Below, piece by piece: positions 19 through 43,023 of a stretch of DNA of 43,103 nucleotides. Where the stretch lies: UHGV virus genome UHGV-0195171. One strand, 5' to 3'. Numbering within the stretch: position 1 is the stretch's first letter; each line of letters begins with the position of its first letter. The notes beneath the pieces are model-generated. The model did no database searches. It was not told where the DNA came from and worked only from the letters and a program-made list of their open reading frames with translations. Both the position numbers and the translations under genes were made by a program. The DNA is from a virus.

Positions 19-483
19 ATGAACGCCATGAGAAAGAAAACGCTTGATGCAGCTGAAGCTGACGCAGCACAAAGGCTGCGGGACATATGGAACGAGAAAA
101 AAGTAACTTTACGTCTGACTCAGGAAAAGGCGGCGGATGCACTCGGCTTTAGTACTCAGGCAACAGTTAGCCAGTATTTAAATGGCAGCATCCCCCTCAA
201 TACCGATGCAACATTGAAGTTTTCTGCATTGTTGGGGGTTAAACCAGAAGATATTCGCCCTGATCTTGCTGAGTTAATGAACTACGTACGGAAAACAGGA
301 GCGTATGTTCAGGATTATTCCGCTGCTGGTTGGCGGCTACTTAAACCAGAAGATGCTGAATTGATAGAGCTTTACGAAAGACTACCGCAAAGCGAAAAAG
401 AAAGACATCTAACTGAATTAAAAGAAAAAGTATCAGGGTTCGATCGCCTATTTGAAGAACTTTTAGCCACCAGAAAACAGTAA
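19..483 (+). CDS. CI-like lysogeny repressor; HTH DNA-binding protein with no S24 peptidase domain
   Basis: 154-aa ORF with an HTH-like segment QEKAADALGFSTQATVSQYLNG. No Ala-Gly / Ser..Lys autocleavage module is visible. A hairpin+T-run terminator follows directly. It is divergent from the Cro-like gene at the other end of the window if the sequence is circular. Confidence 0.55.
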   Translation: MNAMRKKTLDAAEADAAQRLRDIWNEKKVTLRLTQEKAADALGFSTQATVSQYLNGSIPLNTDATLKFSALLGVKPEDIRPDLAELMNYVRKTGAYVQDYSAAGWRLLKPEDAELIELYERLPQSEKERHLTELKEKVSGFDRLFEELLATRKQ

Positions 484-2000: not shown

Positions 2001-4130
2001 ATGACCATATACAACGGCTTATTTGAGCCCAAGAAATCGGCAATCAAAGACTGCGGTGCCGTGCAGCTGGCGATCGCCGTCGAAGCACCGAACAAGAAAG
2101 TCGCTGAAAGCATTATGACCGGAAAACTCTGGGAGTCTTACCCGGCGAACGGAGACAACTATTTCAAACCTAAGCTGTGGGAACACATTGAAGGCCAGCC
2201 ACTGCCGGCAGTCGGCCAGTTCGATGAACATTTCGCCCAGGAAAATACCTTTGATGGTGAAAAATGGGTGGCTAACAGCCAGGATGACGGCGCCACCGAG
2301 TTGCCGGCAGGCGATGAAGTTATCGATCTGATGACGGTATCCCCCAGGGAGCGTTTTGCTGCTGTATTACTCTTCAGCAAATTAGAGATAAACGGCCAGC
2401 TCTATTCGCAGGTTGTAGATTATCTTGATGATCTGGATAACCACAACGAATCCATAGAAGAGGATGACCGTTTTAATTTCAATGTGCTTTGCGCCCTGCA
2501 CAATAACGAACCAGTGAAACATATGCACGTGGAAGGTCTGAACAATCTGATCCATGGCATCTTCTCCCATTTTGAAAACCAGATGCCGGGTAAAGCGGCT
2601 ATTTCTCAATTTGTAAAACGCTGGCTTGAAAATCCCGGTAAACGCGAAGAAATGGTACCAGGCCAAAATTATGCCCCCAGCACTGATAACAACGTTAAAA
2701 TCGCGCCAAAGCGTGGTTATAAACATACCTACGCAACACTGGATCAGGAGATCGCTGTTGCGCTGCTCCCTATCTCTCCCGACGCGCCAGTATTATCAGG
2801 CAACCTTCGCGACGCGGAGAAAATCATTGCAGACGATCGTGAGGATTTTAAACGTTGGTCTGCATCACTGCATGTCACACCGAACATACTCAAATATGAC
2901 CGTGCCAGCATTTTCGGCGTAGTGCAGAACGTTCCGGCGAAAGATACTTACCATTTTCCGGAAAGTCTGCGCCGCCATATTACTTCATGGCTTGAAGCTA
3001 ACGGCCGCTTTGAAGAAGACGAAGGCTCATCACAAAAACAACCGACAGCGGAGCAAAATACCGCCTCAAACGTGGTCAAAAAAGAGGAAGTGCCGCCGCC
3101 GGTTGTAACCGATACCCAGGCCAAACAGGCGCGTGAGACGCTCAACGATATGGGCTATGGCGTATATGCCTCTGGTGAAGGAGCAGAGCCAGAAGAGAAG
3201 TTGAGTGAAAAAGTAAAAACTATCGTTCAGGACGTTGATCAGCTTGTTGAACGAATTAACCGAGAAGAGAACCTGCCGAAAGCTTCCGAAGTCGTCCAGA
3301 GCATTAACGAAATGCAGGAAACAGAACGTGACAATCTGGAACTATGGAAACGAGTTTTCAAAACTGATGAACGGTTTACTAAAGCCTTTACGCAGAACGG
3401 CGGCGGCACCTCGATCAATGGCACGTACCTAACGATGTTAGCAACACGTGAGTTTGGCTTGAAAGGGAGCGGCTGGGGCGTCGATATTCTGGAAGAACGC
3501 TTTGATGATGGCGCACCAATTACACGTACAGTAAAAGGAGCTGACGGTAATAATACATGGGAACTGATCCCTGATGGTAATGGTGGCTTCCTAACTGAAA
3601 AACACCATGTGATAAAAATTAGGCTGTGGTACCTGGTAAACGGTGTTCGTGGTGAAGAATACGCCTACGGATGTACCCCTTACATTTACGGCAGTAAATA
3701 CGGCCCTATCTGCGACGGCGAAGCTACTAAAAAATCACTAACTGACGCCACCAAAAAGGCATTATCCGGCCTCGGATTCAGCGGCGATATATTTATGGGG
3801 CTTTACGACAATCTGGAGTACCGCCAAAAGAACAAGGCCGAATTTGATCTTAAGAACGCCAGCGAAACCGCCGAAGATGCAGCGCGGTTGCGTCAGGAGT
3901 TCGATGACAAACTAACCCGCGTCGCCAATACACTAGCACATGGCGTAACAGTGAACGAAATAAACGGTGTGTTCTCCCCTATCGCACGTGAAATCGATGT
4001 TCACATTAAGGCCGCACAGGCCAACGGCGACAAGCAACATGAACGCTATCTTTCTGGTCGCCTGCGCCGCCTGATTGCCATTAAAGATGGTCGTCTCAAA
4101 GAACTGAATAAAGCCGAGGAGAAAGCATAA
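2001..4130 (+). CDS. Rad52/Sak/Erf-superfamily single-strand annealing protein with a roughly 440-aa N-terminal extension
   Basis: The C-terminal third carries the Rad52-like annealing signature (…YAYGCTPYIYGSKYG…EATKKSLTDATKKALSGLGFSGDIFMGLYDN…). Preceded by GAGGAAAGACCAATG. Located upstream of the gp157-like gene, as in phage recombination modules. Confidence 0.6.
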   Translation: MTIYNGLFEPKKSAIKDCGAVQLAIAVEAPNKKVAESIMTGKLWESYPANGDNYFKPKLWEHIEGQPLPAVGQFDEHFAQENTFDGEKWVANSQDDGATELPAGDEVIDLMTVSPRERFAAVLLFSKLEINGQLYSQVVDYLDDLDNHNESIEEDDRFNFNVLCALHNNEPVKHMHVEGLNNLIHGIFSHFENQMPGKAAISQFVKRWLENPGKREEMVPGQNYAPSTDNNVKIAPKRGYKHTYATLDQEIAVALLPISPDAPVLSGNLRDAEKIIADDREDFKRWSASLHVTPNILKYDRASIFGVVQNVPAKDTYHFPESLRRHITSWLEANGRFEEDEGSSQKQPTAEQNTASNVVKKEEVPPPVVTDTQAKQARETLNDMGYGVYASGEGAEPEEKLSEKVKTIVQDVDQLVERINREENLPKASEVVQSINEMQETERDNLELWKRVFKTDERFTKAFTQNGGGTSINGTYLTMLATREFGLKGSGWGVDILEERFDDGAPITRTVKGADGNNTWELIPDGNGGFLTEKHHVIKIRLWYLVNGVRGEEYAYGCTPYIYGSKYGPICDGEATKKSLTDATKKALSGLGFSGDIFMGLYDNLEYRQKNKAEFDLKNASETAEDAARLRQEFDDKLTRVANTLAHGVTVNEINGVFSPIAREIDVHIKAAQANGDKQHERYLSGRLRRLIAIKDGRLKELNKAEEKA

Positions 4131-4932: not shown

Positions 4933-5127
4933 ATGCTACGTTGGCAACCAGGTGTAGTTTTACTTTCTGAATTCGATATCAAAATTGGCAGGCTATCAGC
5001 CAGCGTTAGAAAAAGGACTCTGACCCAGTCCGATATCCATATCGCTTGTGATACAGCTGACAACGCAATAGCCCGGCTTATGAGGAAAGACCATGACCAG
5101 AGAAAACGATCTCCTGACCGACGATGA
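4933..5127 (+). CDS. hypothetical small protein
   Basis: 64-aa ORF from the ATG at 4933 with a GGAGA SD. It overlaps the start of the next gene by 35 nt, so it is uncertain. Confidence 0.3.
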   Translation: MLRWQPGVVLLSEFDIKIGRLSASVRKRTLTQSDIHIACDTADNAIARLMRKDHDQRKRSPDRR

Positions 5128-5317
5128 ACTGATAGAATTGACCGGATACCGATTTCCTTCTAAGCAGTGCTCGGCTTTAGCTAAATCCGGTATTTCGTTT
5201 GTTAAACGTCGGGACGGCCGGCCTCGCGTGACATGGACACATGTGAATGCAGCGCTATTCGGAGACAGAAAAATAGTTGCTGACGAAGAAGAAAAACCAA
5301 ACTTTGATGCTATTTAA
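5093..5317 (+). CDS. DUF4224-type excisionase-like protein (putative Xis)
   Basis: 74 aa with LTDDELIELTGYRFPSKQCSALAKSGISFVKR…, directly upstream of int. Preceded by GAGGAAAGACCATG. Confidence 0.55.
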   Translation: MTRENDLLTDDELIELTGYRFPSKQCSALAKSGISFVKRRDGRPRVTWTHVNAALFGDRKIVADEEEKPNFDAI

Positions 5318-5320
5318 ATT

Positions 5321-6349
5321 ATGGGAAGAAAAAGAAAAAACCAGGAGGATAACAAACTTCCTCCCCGCGTTTATTCAAATAAGTACAGTTACTATTACAA
5401 ACCAACCTCAAAAGAATGCATCACAATTGGCCCCGTATCAATGCCCTTGTCTCAGTTATGGGCAAGATATGAGGCATTAATTGACGAACAGGCCAACGTA
5501 ATGACATTCAGTAAATTATGGGGGTTATTTCTTAAGAGTGCCTATTATCTTGAATTGAAACCAAGGACGCAGAAAGATTATCTGCAACACCAGAAAAAGC
5601 TACTTGCTGTATTTGGGAAGATTACGGCAGATAAAATTAAAACTGAAGATATCAGGATGTTTATGGATAGGCGAGGCTTGCAAAGTAAAACGCAGGCAAA
5701 TCATGAAATGAGTAGCATGTCTCGTGTTTTCAGATGGGGTTTTGAGCGGGGTATGGTTAAAGGGAATCCTTGCCAGGGCGTCAGTAAATTTAAAGCTGTC
5801 GCCCGCGGAAGGTACATTACCGACGCGGAATATGAGGCTATCTATAATGAGGCGGATGATGTCGTTCGTACAGCAATGGAAATTGCCTATCTTTGCGCTG
5901 CCCGCCTGGCTGATGTACTCGGCATGCAGTGGCGACAGGTAACGCCGGAAGGAATCTTCATTCAGCAGGGTAAAAACAATGTTAGCCAGATCAAGCAGTG
6001 GACAGACCGGCTTAAACAGGCTTTCGAACTCGCAAAAACATTCTCTAATTCCGGCAATCCAGGAGCATTCGTCCTGATGGGCTCACATGGTAGCGGGTTC
6101 AGTAAAAGAGGATTCAGCCACCGATGGGAGGAGGCAAGGCATAAAGCTTCTGTAAAACTGGGGTACGTTCTCGACTGTACGTTCCACGATCTGAAGGCGA
6201 AAGGTATCTCTGATTACGAAGGAAGCAGCCGGGATAAACAACTGTTCAGCGGACATAAAACAGAAAGCCAGGTTCTGATTTATGATCGTAAAACGAAGGT
6301 GTCACCCACTCTCGACAAGCCGCCAATTGAGACTAAAAATTCTAAGTGA
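5321..6349 (+). CDS. int: tyrosine integrase, lambda Int family
   Basis: 342 aa. Lambda-Int-like N-terminal arm-binding region (LPPRVYSNKYSYYYKP…). Catalytic-domain motifs …AARLADVLGMQWRQV…, …HDLKAKG…, and SGHKTESQVLIYDRK with the catalytic Tyr. It is transcribed toward the attP core. Confidence 0.85.
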   Translation: MGRKRKNQEDNKLPPRVYSNKYSYYYKPTSKECITIGPVSMPLSQLWARYEALIDEQANVMTFSKLWGLFLKSAYYLELKPRTQKDYLQHQKKLLAVFGKITADKIKTEDIRMFMDRRGLQSKTQANHEMSSMSRVFRWGFERGMVKGNPCQGVSKFKAVARGRYITDAEYEAIYNEADDVVRTAMEIAYLCAARLADVLGMQWRQVTPEGIFIQQGKNNVSQIKQWTDRLKQAFELAKTFSNSGNPGAFVLMGSHGSGFSKRGFSHRWEEARHKASVKLGYVLDCTFHDLKAKGISDYEGSSRDKQLFSGHKTESQVLIYDRKTKVSPTLDKPPIETKNSK

Positions 6350-6383: not shown

Positions 6384-6416
6384 AAGGGGTTACCTTTCGG
6401 TAACCCCTTCTTTTAT
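6384..6416. terminator. bidirectional rho-independent terminator between int and the tRNA-derived core
   Basis: aaggggttacc-tttc-ggtaacccctt hairpin with T-runs on both strands. Confidence 0.6.
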
Positions 6417-6417
6417 A

Positions 6418-6476
6418 TGGCGGAAGCGCAGAGATTCGAACTCTGGAACCCTTTCGGGTCGCCGGTTTTCAAGACC
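6418..6476 (-). tRNA. 3' portion (anticodon stem through CCA) of tRNA-Ser(UGA); phage attP core
   Basis: The minus strand reads GGTCTTGAAAACCGGCGACCCGAAAGGGTTCCAGAGTTCGAATCTCTGCGCTTCCGCCA. This has the anticodon loop CTTGAAA, a long variable arm, T-arm GGTTCGAATC, acceptor stem and CCA, matching the 3' part of enterobacterial serT as recalled. The 5' half of the tRNA is absent. Confidence 0.75.
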
Positions 6477-6607
6477 AAATCAAATGGATTTATAATCAGT
6501 ATGTTATGCTACATTCATAGAATAAAGTCGTTATTTGACACCACTAAAAATCAATCAGTTACACTTAATGCATGGGCTTTATTCTTTCAACTTTTAAGGT
6601 ATCTCCC

Positions 6608-6657
6608 TTGACTTCCTTACAGTTTCAAGAGTAAAAATACTGTACATAAAAACAGTA
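6608..6657 (+). promoter_or_regulatory. SOS-type promoter: TTGACT -35, A/T-rich -10, then a near-consensus LexA box
   Basis: TTGACT at 6608-6613. TACTGTACATAAAAACAGTA at 6638-6657 (CTGT-N8-ACAG with TA flanks). Confidence 0.55.
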
Positions 6658-6669
6658 TTGGTGGCCAAA

Positions 6670-6945
6670 ATGATCAACAGAGAATCCAACGCATCGAGCA
6701 TTCCAGAACTGACTGGCTTTAACGTCAGCCATTCGGCTTTAACCCGTCAGGTGTTCCTCAATGCTACTTTTACGGACAACATGGCGTCAGTACCTCACTG
6801 GCCACTGAAAGAGTTTCCTGACCTGTTTTGTTGCATCTCCAGGGATAGGGCGGAAGCCTTGCTCCATCAACTCCAGCGAGCGATCGATTATCTGGATGCC
6901 GGGATGGATTCGCCCTCGCTATTTCTTATCGACGATGACCTCTGA
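6670..6945 (+). CDS. hypothetical 91-aa protein downstream of the LexA box (candidate SOS-induced effector or antirepressor)
   Basis: ATG at 6670 with a GGTGG SD. Same frame as ORF-track entry 6658-6945. Located in the AT-rich att-proximal region. Confidence 0.4.
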   Translation: MINRESNASSIPELTGFNVSHSALTRQVFLNATFTDNMASVPHWPLKEFPDLFCCISRDRAEALLHQLQRAIDYLDAGMDSPSLFLIDDDL

Positions 6946-7224
6946 TGCGGAGCAATAGCGATAGATGGTTTTCACATCGACACCAATCACCGCGGAAACC
7001 TGCTGCCGGCTGGCTCCGTTCACCAGCATCTGGCGGCAGCGTTCCACTACCTCAGTGGTCATAATCCGGCGGCGGCCGCCGATTCTCCCCTGCTCCCTAG
7101 CCGCGGCTAAACCAGCGCGGGTTCGCTCAACTATCAATTCTCGCTCCATCTCTGCCAGCGCGCTCATGACGTGAAAGAAAAAGCGCCCGGCGGGCAGGAT
7201 GGTATCAATCAGCAAATAATCCAA
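6919..7224 (-). pseudogene. truncated serine DNA invertase (Hin/Gin/Pin family) lacking the catalytic N-terminal domain
   Basis: The 101-aa ORF matches the invertase core and C-terminal HTH (GRFFFHVMSALAEMERELIVERTRAGLAAAREQGRIGGRR…KTIYRY). The roughly 85-aa catalytic-Ser domain is missing. A short MSIGNIWII stub at 7235-7262 in another frame suggests an internal deletion or frameshift. Confidence 0.6.
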
Positions 7225-7424: not shown

Positions 7425-8288
7425 TTAAATAATTCCTTCTTTCCTAGCGTTAGACAAATAAACTATATGATTTACACTATTGCTTTTCCTTACACCTCTT
7501 AACTCAACCTTTAGTTTAACAAACCCTTCTGCTACAGATAACACCCCACCAATAATAGCCGTCGTTAGTGGCATTGGAGACTGAGACGCCCCAAGTAACG
7601 CAGCAAATCCTGCTCTTATATTAGACACATCAAATTCAGATGATATATCTAAGTTAAACCTTACAGGACTTTGCCAGACTTCATTATTTATTTTATCTAA
7701 GTCCTCAACTGCCTTTTTAAGTTTGGAAAAATTCCTTGCGCGAAGTAAATTGGGATCTGCCGAGTTTAAAATTTCCAGGTACAATTCATCACAATAATAA
7801 TGAAGGGCGACTAACTCAGCGTTTCTTCTGAGTTTAAATTCCAGAATATCATGCAAATGAACGCTACCGTCCGGTACAGGTAGCACGCCCAACAACTCAA
7901 TCCTAATAAGTTCTCTCTGAACCAATTCTATATACTCACTTTCTCGATAAATAACATCATTACCTATCTGATGTATTCGCCAATCTGTATCACTTTCTTT
8001 GCTCCGGAGGAGATCAAGTGCGTAGAATTGCGCATTTACGAGTTCAGAAATATATGTATCACTGGAAAACACACGAGGGCTAAATATAAAACGACTTAGC
8101 ATACCACAAGATTCAAGCTCATCTGTAATGTGTGGTATAAACCTCATTTGACCATTCTCAGGAATAACCAACTTATCCCAATAAAGACAAAAGTAATTTA
8201 TCTCCAATCGAGAAATTATTCTTTTTAGAGTAAAACCGCCTGCTTTTCTCTCAAAAACACCCGGAGGTGTAACAATCCCTCTTTTCAT
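7425..8288 (-). CDS. hypothetical 287-aa protein; AT-rich orphan/moron gene in the att-proximal region
   Basis: Long ORF with visibly lower GC than the phage core. It has its own AT-rich upstream region (8289-8504). No family recognised. Confidence 0.6.
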   Translation of the reverse strand: MKRGIVTPPGVFERKAGGFTLKRIISRLEINYFCLYWDKLVIPENGQMRFIPHITDELESCGMLSRFIFSPRVFSSDTYISELVNAQFYALDLLRSKESDTDWRIHQIGNDVIYRESEYIELVQRELIRIELLGVLPVPDGSVHLHDILEFKLRRNAELVALHYYCDELYLEILNSADPNLLRARNFSKLKKAVEDLDKINNEVWQSPVRFNLDISSEFDVSNIRAGFAALLGASQSPMPLTTAIIGGVLSVAEGFVKLKVELRGVRKSNSVNHIVYLSNARKEGII

Positions 8289-34071: not shown

Positions 34072-34424
34072 TGGTTTTCCTCTTTCGGTGGTTGTCGTGC
34101 ACTCCGCAGCAGCAGAGTGATCATGTAGTTTTTGCTGTGGCGCCGGCAGGAGTCGAAAAAGCTTTCGCGTTTGCTCATAGGGATTTTGTTTCCGGAAAAC
34201 TTCTCCGCCAGCTCTGCCGTTGGGAAATAAATGCGACGTGAATTTCGTCCTGTTTCGTTGTGGGCGCGGAATATAAGATTGTCTTTAAGCAGACTGTCCA
34301 AAATAAAAAATACAGTGCTGCGTGACATACCGAGCGAATACATCACTTCGGCAGAAGTTACCCCTTCCGAACAGGTGCGAATAAGCTCAAGCACCGCAAT
34401 TTTTTTTCTGGTTAAACCCGACAT
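34068..34424 (-). CDS. winged-helix DNA-binding protein (candidate late-gene regulator)
   Basis: 118 aa. The segment …IAVLELIRTCSEGVTSAEVMYSLGMSRSTVFFILDSLLKDNLI… looks like a MarR/PadR-type wHTH. Located just upstream of the packaging genes. Confidence 0.4.
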   Translation of the reverse strand: MSGLTRKKIAVLELIRTCSEGVTSAEVMYSLGMSRSTVFFILDSLLKDNLIFRAHNETGRNSRRIYFPTAELAEKFSGNKIPMSKRESFFDSCRRHSKNYMITLLLRSARQPPKEENQ

Positions 34425-34714
34425 AGGCGCAATACCTTCACTTCAGTCGTCACCTGATCGAGCAACTCCAGTTCGGTACCGTATTTGCCCTCCCATGTCT
34501 TTTGTCCGGCATGAATTGCCACACCAAAACCGCCAGTGCGGTGATGTGCAGGGCAAAGAGGCAAGGTTCTTTTGTGATTTGCGCGCTGGCCGGCGCCCTG
34601 ACCGGTTCGGATGTGGTGAATTTCTGCCGGAGTGGAACCGAAACCGAGATTGCGACAGACAATGCAACCCAATTCGGCTACGTCTGACAGCCAGTCTTTA
34701 TCGTCTTTAGTCAT
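34412..34714 (-). CDS. Ref-like HNH endonuclease (phage P1 recombination-enhancement-function family)
   Basis: 100 aa from the ATG at 34714 (MTKDDKDW…). …CIVCRNLGFGSTPAEIHHIRTGQGAGQRANHKRTLPLCPAHHRTGGFGVAIHAG… carries CxxC plus HH/HH metal-binding motifs. Confidence 0.55.
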   Translation of the reverse strand: MTKDDKDWLSDVAELGCIVCRNLGFGSTPAEIHHIRTGQGAGQRANHKRTLPLCPAHHRTGGFGVAIHAGQKTWEGKYGTELELLDQVTTEVKVLRLCRV

Positions 34715-34724
34715 GGTGGTGACC

Positions 34725-35318
34725 TCAGGCCGCATAACTGAAAAGCTGAGAGGCTGCGTTTTCTGCTGCCTGCTGCGTTGGGAAGGTGCGGAACAGAATG
34801 AAGTTCCAGAGAACGTCGAGGACTGACTTATAAAGCTGGGAGAATTCAAGGTCGTCCATTTTGGCGAACGATATGGACTTTGGCTCTTTGCGGATGGTGC
34901 CATCAGGCATCTGATATTCGTTATAAAAACCAGCTTCGATGGTTACCCAGGCACGAAACGCCTCGAATGATTTAACAGCGCTGATATTCCCGGCGCGTTT
35001 TTCCGCCTCATCGCGAAGATATTGATCCGCCAGTTCCTGCAATGTGTCGCCGTGCCCGGCATAGTGGGCCACCAGCTGCACGTAACCACGAACCAGTTTT
35101 TTATCGGCTGGCGATATTGCACCGCCAGAAGGTTGCCAGTAATCAAATCCCAGATTCAGGAGGGCAAAAAATTTGCGGTGAAATGCCGGGTTTCTTGCCT
35201 GCTTAAAATCAGAGTAAAGGACTGCCCCCAGGCGAATTTTCTTCACAAACTCGCGGGCGTCTGGAGATGCAGGGATTAATACATCGCCTGCTGATTTGAT
35301 AAATGAATACTGCGCCAT
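34725..35318 (-). CDS. DUF1367-like phage protein (197 aa)
   Basis: ORF in the nin-like region. Family assignment is from memory of conserved prophage proteins. Confidence 0.4.
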   Translation of the reverse strand: MAQYSFIKSAGDVLIPASPDAREFVKKIRLGAVLYSDFKQARNPAFHRKFFALLNLGFDYWQPSGGAISPADKKLVRGYVQLVAHYAGHGDTLQELADQYLRDEAEKRAGNISAVKSFEAFRAWVTIEAGFYNEYQMPDGTIRKEPKSISFAKMDDLEFSQLYKSVLDVLWNFILFRTFPTQQAAENAASQLFSYAA

Positions 35319-35386
35319 TGGGTTCCCCTTTAGCGCAGCAATTGTTCAGAATTACATTGTGTTGGGTGTTCAGGCCAACAGGGTAA

Positions 35387-35578
35387 TTATAGCATAGTAC
35401 CGTCTGGTTTGATAATGGTGTAACCAGTCAATTTAGCTAACTCAAACAACGCGTTAAGTGTCGCCACATGCTCATCAGAGTGGACTGTTCGGGTCTTCTT
35501 GATCTTCCCATTTTCACACGTTATCAGTACATCGCCATCGTCGGGGAGAAGGTCTCCTGCGTCTTTCTTATCAACCAC
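35387..35578 (-). CDS. small protein (63 aa, GTG start) downstream of a LexA box; candidate SOS-induced antirepressor
   Basis: ORF with a GGGAGAGG SD region. The start codon appears to be GTG at 35578. A near-consensus LexA box lies 19 nt upstream. Confidence 0.4.
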   Translation of the reverse strand: MVDKKDAGDLLPDDGDVLITCENGKIKKTRTVHSDEHVATLNALFELAKLTGYTIIKPDGTML

Positions 35579-35596
35579 TACCTCTCCCTCAACAAA

Positions 35597-35616
35597 TACT
35601 GTATAAATTTACAGTA
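35597..35616. promoter_or_regulatory. LexA (SOS) box
   Basis: TACTGTATAAATTTACAGTA (CTGT-N8-ACAG with TA flanks). It overlaps the -10 candidates of the minus-strand promoter for the 63-aa gene. Confidence 0.6.
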
Positions 35617-35714
35617 CATATACTACCAACTGACAGTGAGCGCAAATTTTTAAGAGCACTAATAGTTAAAAATCAACAATAAAACAGAAAATTATATGCT
35701 TGAATTAAAAAGAA

Positions 35715-35741
35715 AACCGCCATTCCTGACGGTTCGTTTTT
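35715..35741. terminator. weak bidirectional terminator after the 113-aa gene
   Basis: aaccg-N10-cggtt hairpin with T-runs on both strands. Confidence 0.3.
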
Positions 35742-42282: not shown

Positions 42283-42729
42283 TTAAACGCTGGTCAGGCG
42301 CTGTGTTTCTCTCATCGCTTGCAATGCCTTTGCAACTTGCTGCGGGCCGTCTCTGGCTTCGAGCAATAACGCGATAATGGCCGCCGCAAACTCGCGTATG
42401 GCGACACAGATCAAATACTGGGTTGACATGTCCAGCCGCGCGTAACGTTCCGCCGGCAGCGCTGCTTCCATCGCTTTGGCCAGGGCCATAGTTTTGGTTC
42501 TGGCCGCTTTAGTTTCTCCACGCAGCCAGCGAAAAATCTGCTGGCGGTTGTTGTTGATGGCCCGCCAGTCTGCTTTTCCATCTGCATCTTCAATCTGGTG
42601 CAGTTTCAGCACGCCGGTGTTACCACCGAGACGAAACCACATACGGCTTATCTCGATGGCAACCAGCTCCTGCCCACTTTCTGCCGCCCAGCTGAATATC
42701 TCTCGCTTCAGTTCCTCGATGTTTTCCAC
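42283..42729 (-). CDS. YdaT-like protein (Rac prophage toxin/regulator family; occupies the cII position)
   Basis: 148 aa, GTG start with an AGGAGA SD. …WAAESGQELVAIEISRMWFRLGG…DW…QQIFRWLRGE… matches the E. coli YdaT pattern as recalled. Directly downstream of the Cro-like gene, as ydaS-ydaT are in Rac. Confidence 0.45.
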   Translation of the reverse strand: MENIEELKREIFSWAAESGQELVAIEISRMWFRLGGNTGVLKLHQIEDADGKADWRAINNNRQQIFRWLRGETKAARTKTMALAKAMEAALPAERYARLDMSTQYLICVAIREFAAAIIALLLEARDGPQQVAKALQAMRETQRLTSV

Positions 42730-42789: not shown

Positions 42790-43023
42790 TTAAGCTGCGT
42801 TCTGTTCGGGGATGCCATCGGTAGGTTTCCGATAAATGTTTGGTAGCAGGTCATGTGGTGTTACCTGATACCCGGTGGCCGCAGCCCATTTCAAGGCCGT
42901 TGCAGCCCCAAGCAGGCATTTACCAGAGGCGACACGACTTACATACCCCTGTGATTCACCGACCAATTGAGCAAAGTCCTGCTGGCGCACGCCAGAGGTC
43001 TTCAGATAGTTTTTGAGATCCAT
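42790..43023 (-). CDS. Cro-like HTH regulator
   Basis: 77 aa from the ATG at 43023 (MDLKNYLKTSGVRQQDFAQLVGESQGYVSRVASGK…) with a GAGGAAG SD. First gene of the minus-strand early operon. Confidence 0.6.
   Translation of the reverse strand: MDLKNYLKTSGVRQQDFAQLVGESQGYVSRVASGKCLLGAATALKWAAATGYQVTPHDLLPNIYRKPTDGIPEQNAA

What the first reader, a model, noticed from the sequence alone, without database searches (positions are those of the whole stretch)
35387..35616. Near-consensus LexA box ahead of a 63-aa gene, combined with a non-cleavable repressor: antirepressor-type SOS induction circuit
TACTGTATAAATTTACAGTA (35597-35616) matches the LexA consensus TACTG(TA)5CAGTA and overlaps the promoter of a small minus-strand gene (GTG start at 35578). 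A bidirectional terminator (35715-35741) isolates it from the upstream operon. The lysogeny repressor (19-483) has no S24 autopeptidase module. Induction is therefore probably indirect, through a LexA-controlled antirepressor as with coliphage 186 Tum or Gifsy/Fels-type prophages. The 63-aa product has no recognisable family.
Basis: partly seen in the sequence, partly recalled or inferred. Interest (0 to 1): 0.6.

Follow-up and report, generated by a model that had tools for sequence, protein, structure and literature searches.

The report
SOS-controlled small antirepressor of a Klebsiella phage
A LexA-repressed promoter in this temperate Klebsiella-type phage drives a 63-residue protein of the same family as E. 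coli Rem, so induction by DNA damage almost certainly follows the already known "antirepressor" route of Salmonella Gifsy prophages, not repressor self-cleavage.

Summary
TACTGTATAAATTTACAGTA (35597-35616) differs from the LexA consensus at 2 positions, and no shuffle gave a comparable match. It abuts the -10 of a conserved promoter (TTGCGC-17-TATATG) ahead of a GTG-started 63-aa gene (35387-35578, minus strand). All 56 related loci keep a perfect CTGT-N8-ACAG core there, in 16 sequence variants.

The protein falls in phrog_340 together with E. coli Rem, the tested antirepressor of DicA. A family profile also hits the probable Fels-1 FsoA and the gene between dinI and irsA in Salmonella phage SEN34. 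The next gene downstream is an irsA homologue (57% identical to Gifsy-2 STM1020), as in the Gifsy dinI-antirepressor-irsA operon, although dinI is absent here.

The repressor (19-483) has an HTH domain plus a DicA-type C-terminal module and no S24 domain. Of 46 related loci with an identifiable repressor, 44 full-length ones have this short DicA/GtgR-type tail. They span at least six immunity types.

Verdict: a new member of a known kind, of modest interest. A second LexA-controlled gene (6670-6945) next to attP remains unexplained.

The parts
35714..35735 (-). Intrinsic-terminator-like hairpin (GAACCGTCAGGAATGGCGGTTT) followed by TCTTTTT. It separates the upstream early-region genes from the SOS promoter.
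   Evidence: Scan. Fold -12 kcal/mol, z -2.55. Present in most related loci, some with different stem sequences (read by eye from the alignment, not counted).
35640..35645 (-). Predicted -35 hexamer TTGCGC
   Evidence: TTTGCG is conserved in nearly all of the 52 distinct upstream sequences, including otherwise unalignable ones; the E. coli phage L005 row is the outlier. The spacing to the -10 is 17 nt. This is an inference from conservation. The consensus scan did not call it.
35617..35622 (-). Predicted -10 hexamer TATATG (TATATA or TATAAA in most relatives)
   Evidence: Alignment of upstream regions.
35597..35616 (.). LexA operator TACTGTATAAATTTACAGTA. It abuts the -10 and covers the predicted transcription start.
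   Evidence: Perfect CTGT-N8-ACAG core in 56/56 related loci, 16 variants, 18-45 nt from the start codon. Also present in BUCT708 and in E. coli phage 705R4.
35581..35589 (-). Shine-Dalgarno region AGGGAGAGG
   Evidence: Read from the sequence. Conserved as GAGGGAGAGG in most relatives; G-rich but different in the divergent ones.
35387..35578 (-). 63-aa antirepressor gene, GTG start (Rem/FsoA family, phrog_340)
   Evidence: phrog_340 E 8e-23. 64 relatives among 1.84 billion representative proteins. The start codon position is kept, with ATG replacing GTG in L012. AF2 pLDDT 90 with a 42-sequence alignment: helix, beta-hairpin, helix.
34725..35318 (-). irsA homologue (DUF1367), next gene in the same direction. 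No terminator was predicted between it and the antirepressor gene.
   Evidence: 57% identical to Gifsy-2 STM1020, E 2e-86. PF07105 E 7e-85. No minus-strand terminator in 35319-35386.
34412..34714 (-). Ref-like RecA-dependent nuclease / DUF968 gene, probably in the same transcription unit. The start at 34714 is inferred from the 100-aa BUCT708 annotation.
   Evidence: PF16786 E 6e-15 and PF06147. BUCT708 gene layout.
19..483 (+). Lysogeny repressor and presumed target. It has a lambda-CI-like HTH N-domain plus a DicA-type C-terminal module (about residues 106-154) and no S24 domain.
   Evidence: Pfam HTH_3 only. NF007257 DicA, E 3.5e-14 on residues 108-154. BLASTP to DicA 9e-13. N-domain matches lambda CI 1-92, E 8e-6. 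The C-module is conserved across at least 6 immunity types.
42790..43023 (-). Cro-like HTH gene, divergent from the repressor across the window junction, followed by a YdaT/CII-like gene (42283-42729). This places 19-483 in an immunity region.
   Evidence: phrog_35 and HTH_3; phrog_163 and PF06254. Junction sequence.

Best explanation
The locus is the SOS input of the phage's lysis-lysogeny switch, built as in Salmonella Gifsy prophages.

In a lysogen, host LexA binds the operator at 35597-35616. This operator abuts the -10 and covers the start site of a promoter (TTGCGC-17-TATATG), and so keeps it shut. DNA damage activates RecA, LexA cleaves itself, and the promoter fires. The first product is a 63-residue protein of the Rem/FsoA antirepressor family. 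This protein binds the phage's short DicA-type repressor (19-483), which cannot self-cleave, and takes it off its operators. The early operons are then derepressed. The same transcript probably continues into irsA (DUF1367) and a Ref-like RecA-dependent nuclease.

The likely docking site is the repressor's conserved C-terminal module. That module stays 49-65% identical across immunity types whose DNA-binding domains are only 20-29% identical.

Shown here: the operator, its position on a conserved promoter, its conservation across relatives, family membership, synteny and repressor type. Inferred: LexA binding in vivo, the antirepressor-repressor contact and where it docks, and co-transcription of the downstream genes.
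For: Operator:
- 2 mismatches to consensus, with no comparable match in 100 shuffles.
- 56/56 related loci keep a perfect core in 16 sequence variants while the flanks diverge.
- BUCT708 (78% identical protein) and E. coli phage 705R4 (36% identical, same position before DUF1367) also have boxes.

Family:
- The protein hits phrog_340 at E 8e-23, and Rem hits the same PHROG at E 4e-21.
- A profile built without Rem scores Rem at 26.9 bits, E 1.4e-10 for that single comparison.
- The same profile scores Fels-1 STM0898.2n at 54 bits. This ORF lies where the paper maps fsoA (PMC3121763).
- It scores SEN34_55 at 29 bits. That gene lies between dinI and irsA behind a LexA box.
- Rem derepresses the DicA-controlled dicBp promoter 165-fold (PMC10448788).
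- The domain also forms the C-terminal module of KilA-N, P22_AR_N and Rha proteins and of PHROGs annotated as anti-repressor.

Synteny: the downstream gene is 57% identical to Gifsy-2 irsA.

Repressor:
- HTH_3 plus a DicA C-module and no S24.
- Of 46 related loci with an identifiable repressor, 44 full-length ones have a short DicA/GtgR-type tail, one is truncated by the contig end, and one has S24. The short ones span at least 6 HTH types.

Only one family member is encoded in the window.
Against: - No experiment supports the model. Neither LexA binding nor the protein-protein contact was tested.
- Similarity to GftA, the best-studied Gifsy antirepressor, is marginal (no BLASTP alignment; hhalign probability 21%; 7 bits).
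- dinI, the first gene of the Gifsy operon, is absent.
- A second LexA-controlled gene of unknown function exists in the same genome (6670-6945), so the 63-aa gene is not the only SOS output.
- Family members in the left operons of Stx-type phages, and Rem itself, lack LexA boxes. In Fels-1, FsoA plays no part in its own phage's induction (PMC3121763). Membership alone therefore does not prove a role in self-induction.
- One related phage (L064) pairs the same cassette with an S24-type CI.
- The -35/-10 assignment rests on conservation. The consensus scan did not call it.
Confidence: 0.78

Rival explanations
1. The other LexA-controlled gene (91 aa, 6670-6945, next to attP) is the factor that inactivates this phage's repressor. 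On this reading the 63-aa protein acts only in trans on other prophages, or has another role.
For: A near-consensus LexA box (3 mismatches) overlaps a good promoter, TTGACT-18-TAAAAT, 12 nt upstream of the gene. Homologues in SEN34 and Fostie keep both the position next to int and a LexA box, and in Fostie dinI follows. FsoA shows that a member of the 63-aa family can be irrelevant to its own phage's induction (PMC3121763).
Against: The 91-aa protein has no similarity to any antirepressor family, to Tum or to DinI, and none of its relatives carries an informative name. SEN34 carries both this gene and a complete LexA-dinI-antirepressor-irsA operon, so the 91-aa gene accompanies an antirepressor and does not replace one. 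The 63-aa family contains tested antirepressors of DicA-type repressors.
Confidence: 0.07
2. The LexA-controlled promoter mainly serves DNA repair or recombination functions (irsA/DUF1367 and the Ref-like RecA-dependent nuclease). The 63-aa protein would then be an accessory SOS modulator and not a repressor antagonist.
For: The downstream genes are in the same orientation with no predicted terminator between them. One is a RecA-dependent nuclease homologue, which fits an SOS regulon.
Against: The 63-aa protein shows no DinI or Tum similarity and belongs with Rem and the probable FsoA. In Gifsy prophages, non-polar irsA and dinI deletions did not affect induction, whereas the small ORF alone triggered it (PMC3121763). 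A promoter-like site inside the 3' end of the ORF could feed irsA independently.
Confidence: 0.06
3. The cassette is a trans-acting 'crosstalk' device only. It induces co-resident heteroimmune prophages, while this phage's own repressor is inactivated by some other, unknown route.
For: Near-identical antirepressors (95% identity or more) occur with several different repressor types, and once with an S24-type CI. Cross-acting antirepressors are documented (PMC3121763).
Against: The window's repressor carries the DicA-type C-module shared by 44 of the 45 full-length repressors in related loci and has no other recognisable inactivation domain. No other antirepressor-like gene was seen in the window. 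The simplest reading is that the cassette acts on the resident repressor and also on others.
Confidence: 0.06
4. The LexA-like palindrome is a chance match, and the ORF is not a gene.
For: None beyond the small size of the ORF and the absence of Pfam or NCBIfam hits.
Against: No comparable match arose in 100 shuffles. The box core is invariant in 56/56 loci. The protein family has 64 hits at E<1e-3 in a 1.84-billion-protein library, and the AF2 model reaches pLDDT 90.
Confidence: 0.01

Closest known systems
Gifsy-1/-2/-3 prophage induction system of Salmonella (LexA-repressed dinI-gfoA/gftA-irsA operon acting on GfoR/GfhR/GtgR; Lemire et al. 2011, PMC3121763)
   Same: A LexA box sits on the promoter. 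The antirepressor is small, starts at a non-ATG codon, lies outside the immunity region in the nin-like region, and is immediately upstream of irsA (57% identical). The repressor is short, DicA-related and lacks S24. In phage SEN34 the gene in the gfoA position belongs to the same profile family.
   Different: There is no dinI gene, so the antirepressor is the first gene after the operator. Similarity to GftA itself is marginal, and GfoA could not be compared. The host is Klebsiella-type, and the virion genes differ from those of the Gifsy siphoviruses. A Ref-like nuclease follows irsA.
E. coli Qin prophage Rem, antirepressor of DicA (Ragunathan et al. 2023, PMC10448788)
   Same: Same PHROG (phrog_340) and same profile family. 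The target repressor shares the DicA C-terminal module (BLASTP E 9e-13 to DicA).
   Different: Rem is 83 aa with an extra N-terminal copy of the hairpin segment. It is only about 20% identical, has no LexA box, and Qin is not mitomycin-inducible (PMC10448788). Here the gene is in an apparently intact phage and is under LexA control.
Fels-1 FsoA (PMC3121763)
   Same: The Fels-1 ORF at the mapped position scores 54 bits with the family profile.
   Different: FsoA lies in the left operon under the phage repressor, not under LexA. Its own phage uses an S24-type repressor, and FsoA acts in trans on Gifsy-2. Homologues in Stx-type phages sit in the same kind of position.
Coliphage 186 Tum and N15 AntC (LexA-controlled antirepressors)
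   Same: The logic is the same: LexA controls an antirepressor, which inactivates a non-cleaved repressor.
   Different: No sequence relationship was found. Tum falls in phrog_189 (a DinI fusion) and scores about 1 bit with the family profile. 186 CI is unrelated to this repressor. No family member lies in the N15 right arm, which carries that phage's LexA box.
Large phage antirepressors (P22 Ant-type, KilA-N, Rha N-domains)
   Same: The roughly 50-residue fold of the 63-aa protein occurs as their C-terminal module (P0063, P0075, P0094; phrog_4792, phrog_2379).
   Different: The window protein is the module alone, with no N-terminal domain.

Membership tests
Gifsy-type SOS antirepressor circuit (GfoA/GftA/FsoA/Rem small antirepressors) | Small protein (about 60-85 aa) homologous to a characterised member | tested here: met
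   Same PHROG as Rem. A profile built without Rem scores Rem at 26.9 bits, the probable FsoA at 54 bits and SEN34_55 at 29 bits.
Gifsy-type SOS antirepressor circuit (GfoA/GftA/FsoA/Rem small antirepressors) | Detectable homology to GftA/GfoA themselves | tested here: inconclusive
   GftA gives no BLASTP alignment, hhalign probability 21% over 41 collinear columns and 7 bits. It falls in a different PHROG (4847). The GfoA sequence is not held. The paper reports a PSI-BLAST chain from GfoA to Rem (PMC10448788).
Gifsy-type SOS antirepressor circuit (GfoA/GftA/FsoA/Rem small antirepressors) | LexA operator on the promoter of the antirepressor operon | tested here: met
Gifsy-type SOS antirepressor circuit (GfoA/GftA/FsoA/Rem small antirepressors) | Gene outside the immunity region, immediately upstream of irsA (DUF1367) | tested here: met
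   (57% identity to STM1020). The gene lies about 7.5 kb from the repressor.
Gifsy-type SOS antirepressor circuit (GfoA/GftA/FsoA/Rem small antirepressors) | dinI homologue as first gene of the operon | tested here: not met
   There is no ORF between the operator and the 63-aa gene. This feature belongs to the Gifsy operon and is not needed for antirepressor function: dinI deletion had no effect on induction (PMC3121763).
Gifsy-type SOS antirepressor circuit (GfoA/GftA/FsoA/Rem small antirepressors) | Cognate repressor short, DicA/GfoR/GtgR-like, without an S24 autopeptidase domain | tested here: met
   S24 positive control.
Gifsy-type SOS antirepressor circuit (GfoA/GftA/FsoA/Rem small antirepressors) | Antirepressor binds the repressor and releases it from DNA; induction is lexA-dependent | not testable with these tools
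   Needs genetics and biochemistry.
Coliphage 186 Tum | Homology to Tum (antirepressor fused to a DinI-like half) | tested here: not met
   Tum is in phrog_189, which was not among the PHROG matches of the 63-aa protein. The family profile scores Tum at 1 bit. 186 CI is unrelated to the window repressor.
Lambda CI-type induction (RecA-stimulated self-cleavage) | Peptidase S24 C-terminal domain in the repressor | tested here: not met
   No S24 hit at E<=1. Only the N-terminal HTH domain resembles lambda CI.
P22 Ant / KilA-N / Rha multidomain antirepressors | N-terminal P22_AR_N, KilA-N, Bro-N or Rha domain | tested here: not met
   The 63-aa protein consists only of the module that forms their C-terminus.

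The most novel reading that the evidence does not exclude
The roughly 50-residue fold may be a portable docking module for the conserved C-terminal module of DicA-family repressors (LPxSEKERHLxELxxKVxGFxRLFEELL), whatever their operator specificity. If so, one LexA-controlled copy could co-induce every heteroimmune DicA-type prophage in a Klebsiella cell. The same module, fused to KilA-N, Rha or P22-Ant N-domains, would be the repressor-binding end of the large antirepressors. The neighbouring, unrelated LexA-controlled 91-aa gene beside attP would then be a further, still unknown SOS-triggered phage function.
Probability: 0.3. Interest if true: 0.5.

Novelty: new member of a known kind. Interest (0 to 1): 0.3.

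Why it matters
It assigns a function to a widespread 'hypothetical' small protein: phrog_340, listed with unknown function, has no Pfam or NCBIfam model in the copies searched here. It also shows that a group of Klebsiella prophages is wired to the SOS response through an antirepressor and not through repressor cleavage.

This bears on prophage induction by DNA-damaging antibiotics such as fluoroquinolones in Klebsiella, and on cross-induction between co-resident prophages. It also bears on annotation, because these repressors would otherwise be read as non-inducible.

The conserved repressor tail paired with a conserved antirepressor gives a concrete, testable interface. The principle itself has been known since 2011, so the gain is incremental.

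Tried and rejected
- Pfam and NCBIfam scans of the 63-aa protein gave only sub-threshold noise.
- Megablast of the locus against complete E. coli genomes found no match.
- The phage collection holds only the two BUCT708/709 records as close DNA relatives.
- The scan of species-representative genomes returned one real locus, Raoultella.
- The first AF2 run with a shallow alignment gave pLDDT 63 and was unusable.
- A profile search against PDB sequences found nothing.
- Tum, DinI, 186 CI and the N15 right arm showed no relationship. Homology to Tum and AntC is rejected; only the analogy stands.
- The idea that the 91-aa gene is a Tum-like N-terminal half, prompted by dinI following it in Fostie, is rejected.
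- The search for named relatives of the 91-aa protein returned only 'hypothetical protein'.
- The consensus promoter scan did not call the conserved promoter, because its -35 is weak.

Full report
**What the window is.** The 43.1-kb window reads as a complete temperate phage genome, opened between a divergent repressor and a cro-like gene. On the plus strand it carries:
- the repressor (19-483);
- an exonuclease and a Gam-like gene;
- an excisionase-sized ORF (5093-5317, not searched);
- an integrase-type ORF (5321-6349; the matching gene in the closest phage record is annotated as a tyrosine integrase);
- a tRNA 3' fragment that marks attP (about 6410-6480).

On the minus strand it carries:
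- tail and head genes;
- a nin-like region;
- replication genes;
- a YdaT/CII-like gene (42283-42729);
- a Cro-like HTH gene (42790-43023).

The closest phage record is 'Stenotrophomonas' phage BUCT708, at 94% identity over 71% of the first 20 kb. The protein relatives and the tail-fibre matches are Klebsiella and Raoultella.

**Observation check.** TACTGTATAAATTTACAGTA lies at 35597-35616. It has two mismatches to TACTGTATATATATACAGTA. Only two sites in the window have three or fewer mismatches, and 100 dinucleotide-preserving shuffles gave none. The ORF at 35387-35578 (minus strand, 63 aa) starts with GTG, 18 nt from the box, behind AGGGAGAGG.

A hairpin with a T run at 35714-35735 (minus strand) is called as a terminator. 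It folds at -12 kcal/mol, z = -2.55. It recurs in most relatives, some with different stem sequences such as L028 and L042 (read by eye). The repressor shows HTH_3 only and no S24.

**Is the box under selection?** I fetched 57 IMG/VR loci and one Raoultella chromosome locus that encode relatives of the 63-aa protein, 68-98% identical. In all 56 loci where the upstream region is present, a perfect CTGT-N8-ACAG core lies 18-45 nt before the start codon. The box occurs in 16 sequence variants.

In an alignment of the 52 distinct upstream sequences, the box stands out together with TTTGCG (the -35 is TTGCGC, 35640-35645) and TAGTATA (the -10 is TATATG, 35617-35622, read as TATATA or TATAAA in most relatives). 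These elements stand out even where the rest cannot be aligned, as in L050, L056 and L066. The spacing is 17 nt. The box starts directly after the -10, so it covers the predicted start site.

BUCT708 (78% identical protein) has TACTGTATATAAAAACAGTG. An E. coli phage homologue only 36% identical, in the same position before a DUF1367 gene, has TACTGTATAAATATACAGGT. In L012 an ATG replaces the GTG at the same position, which supports the start codon.

**What the protein is.**
- It matches phrog_340 at E 8e-23, and weakly the C-terminal part of PHROGs annotated as anti-repressor.
- E. coli Rem matches the same PHROG at E 4e-21.
- A profile search of 1.84 billion representative proteins found 64 relatives at E<1e-3. 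Most are 55-75 aa and share the motif LPxxGRVLxTxENGxxxSxRxxxxDEHxASLxxFxELAxxAGY.
- A profile I built from these without Rem scores Rem at 26.9 bits, E 1.4e-10 for the single comparison. Rem carries an extra N-terminal copy of the hairpin segment.
- The same profile scores a Fels-1 left-operon ORF (STM0898.2n) at 54 bits. This ORF lies in the interval where Lemire et al. mapped fsoA.
- It scores SEN34_55 at 29 bits. That gene lies between dinI and irsA behind a LexA box in Salmonella phage SEN34.
- Similarity to GftA itself is marginal.

Rem is an experimentally shown antirepressor of DicA, giving 165-fold derepression of dicBp. It was found by PSI-BLAST starting from GfoA (PMC10448788).

The module also forms the C-terminus of proteins with KilA-N, P22_AR_N or Rha N-domains. 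With a 42-sequence alignment AlphaFold gives pLDDT 90: a short helix, a beta-hairpin and a helix. No solved or viral predicted structure resembles it.

**Context.** The next gene (34725-35318) is DUF1367 and is 57% identical to Gifsy-2 STM1020, that is irsA. In Gifsy-2 the order is LexA box, dinI, gftA (GUG start), irsA (PMC3121763). Here the order is LexA box, 63-aa gene (GTG start), irsA, with no dinI. A Ref-like RecA-dependent nuclease follows. No terminator is predicted between the 63-aa gene and irsA.

**The repressor.** It has a lambda-CI-like HTH N-domain plus a C-terminal module that matches DicA: NF007257 E 3.5e-14 on residues 108-154 and BLASTP E 9e-13. It also weakly matches GtgR.

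In the related loci whose flank reaches the immunity region, a repressor could be identified in 46.
- 44 are full-length short repressors with a DicA/GtgR-type tail, of at least six HTH types.
- One (L055) is cut off by the contig end.
- One (L064) has a Peptidase_S24 domain.

Against the window's repressor, the heterologous short types are 20-29% identical in residues 1-105. In residues 106-154 the DicA-like types are 49-65% identical, with the motif LPxSEKERHLxELxxKVxGFxRLFEELL, while the GtgR-like one (L020) is 33% identical. Antirepressors at least 95% identical occur with several of these types. This pattern fits an antirepressor that recognises the conserved tail, as GfoA and GfhA act on heteroimmune repressors (PMC3121763). 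It does not prove it.

**Mechanism.** LexA holds the promoter shut. SOS-induced LexA cleavage releases it. The antirepressor then binds the non-cleavable DicA-type repressor and frees the early promoters. The steps established here and those still inferred are set out under the best explanation.

**Rivals.** It lies on a TTGACT-18-TAAAAT promoter, 12 nt before a 91-aa ORF (6670-6945) next to attP. This protein is in phrog_17793 with unknown function. Homologues in SEN34 and in E. coli phage Fostie sit next to int with their own LexA boxes, and in Fostie dinI follows. It is unrelated to Tum or DinI, and its relatives carry no informative name. Because SEN34 has both this gene and a full dinI-antirepressor-irsA operon, the 91-aa gene looks like an additional SOS output and not the antirepressor. 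Its function is open.

Other rivals are weaker, for the reasons given under each: an SOS repair operon with an accessory small protein, a purely trans-acting device, and chance.

**Comparison and novelty.** The circuit works like, and by the tests above belongs with, the Gifsy-type LexA-antirepressor systems. The protein is a member of the Rem/FsoA small-antirepressor family. It is only analogous to 186 Tum and N15 AntC. Lemire et al. already noted gfoR/gtgR homologues and the dinI-irsA region in Klebsiella. I found no paper treating this Klebsiella phage group specifically.

It is therefore a new member of a known kind. The minor new points are the dinI-less layout, the conserved repressor tail across immunity types, the module's fusion to large antirepressor N-domains, and the second LexA-controlled gene.

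Noticed in passing
window 6609-6945: A second near-consensus LexA box (TACTGTACATAAAAACAGTA, 6638-6657) lies on a TTGACT-18-TAAAAT promoter, 12 nt before a 91-aa ORF (6670-6945, plus strand; phrog_17793, unknown function). It sits just beyond int and attP. Homologues in Salmonella phage SEN34 and E. coli phage Fostie keep the position beside int and have their own LexA boxes. In Fostie a dinI gene follows.
   Followed up: partly
window 6410-6480: A tRNA 3'-end-like fragment lies directly after int (5321-6349) and is probably the attP core. ARAGORN finds no complete tRNA. About 100 bases here are roughly 90% identical to a Salmonella and an Escherichia phage record.
   Followed up: no
window 35386-35415 (minus strand): A promoter-like site, TTATCA-18-TATAAT with a TG extension (10 of 12 matches), lies inside the 3' end of the 63-aa ORF. 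It could transcribe irsA and the downstream genes independently of LexA.
   Followed up: no
window 34412-34714 and 34725-35318: The genes after the antirepressor are an irsA/DUF1367 homologue and a Ref-like RecA-dependent nuclease (PF16786/DUF968). The LexA-controlled transcript may therefore also deliver a RecA-filament-dependent nuclease.
   Followed up: partly
L064 (IMGVR_UViG_2767802184_000002), repressor at about 3250-3540: One related phage combines the same LexA-box, antirepressor and irsA cassette with a CI that has a Peptidase_S24 domain. The antirepressor there may serve only in trans, or be redundant.
   Followed up: partly
L003 2465-2647, L004 2462-2695, L002 2495-2704: Members of the same small-protein family lie in the left (cI-side) operons of Stx-converting and other E. 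coli phages. They have no LexA box. In the Stx and ASU11 phages the resident repressor is annotated CI (not checked here for an S24 domain), which resembles the position of Fels-1 FsoA. phi467 carries a DicA-annotated repressor instead.
   Followed up: partly
L001 2748-4399 (BUCT708): In the closest phage record an ATP-binding protein plus an RloB-domain protein, possibly a defence-type gene pair, is inserted directly upstream of the antirepressor promoter. In the window that position holds an HNH gene and small genes, so the site may be a hot spot for accessory-gene exchange.
   Followed up: no
window 6919-7224 (minus strand) and 7425-8288 (minus strand): A 101-aa ORF matches only the end of the resolvase domain plus the HTH of a DNA invertase, so it is probably a remnant. 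A DUF6236 gene lies beside it, between attP and the tail-fibre gene.
   Followed up: no
P0013: One close relative of the 63-aa protein carries a precomputed Pfam accession, PF27490. It did not appear for the window protein in the Pfam copy searched here. A newer Pfam release may already hold a model for this family.
   Followed up: no
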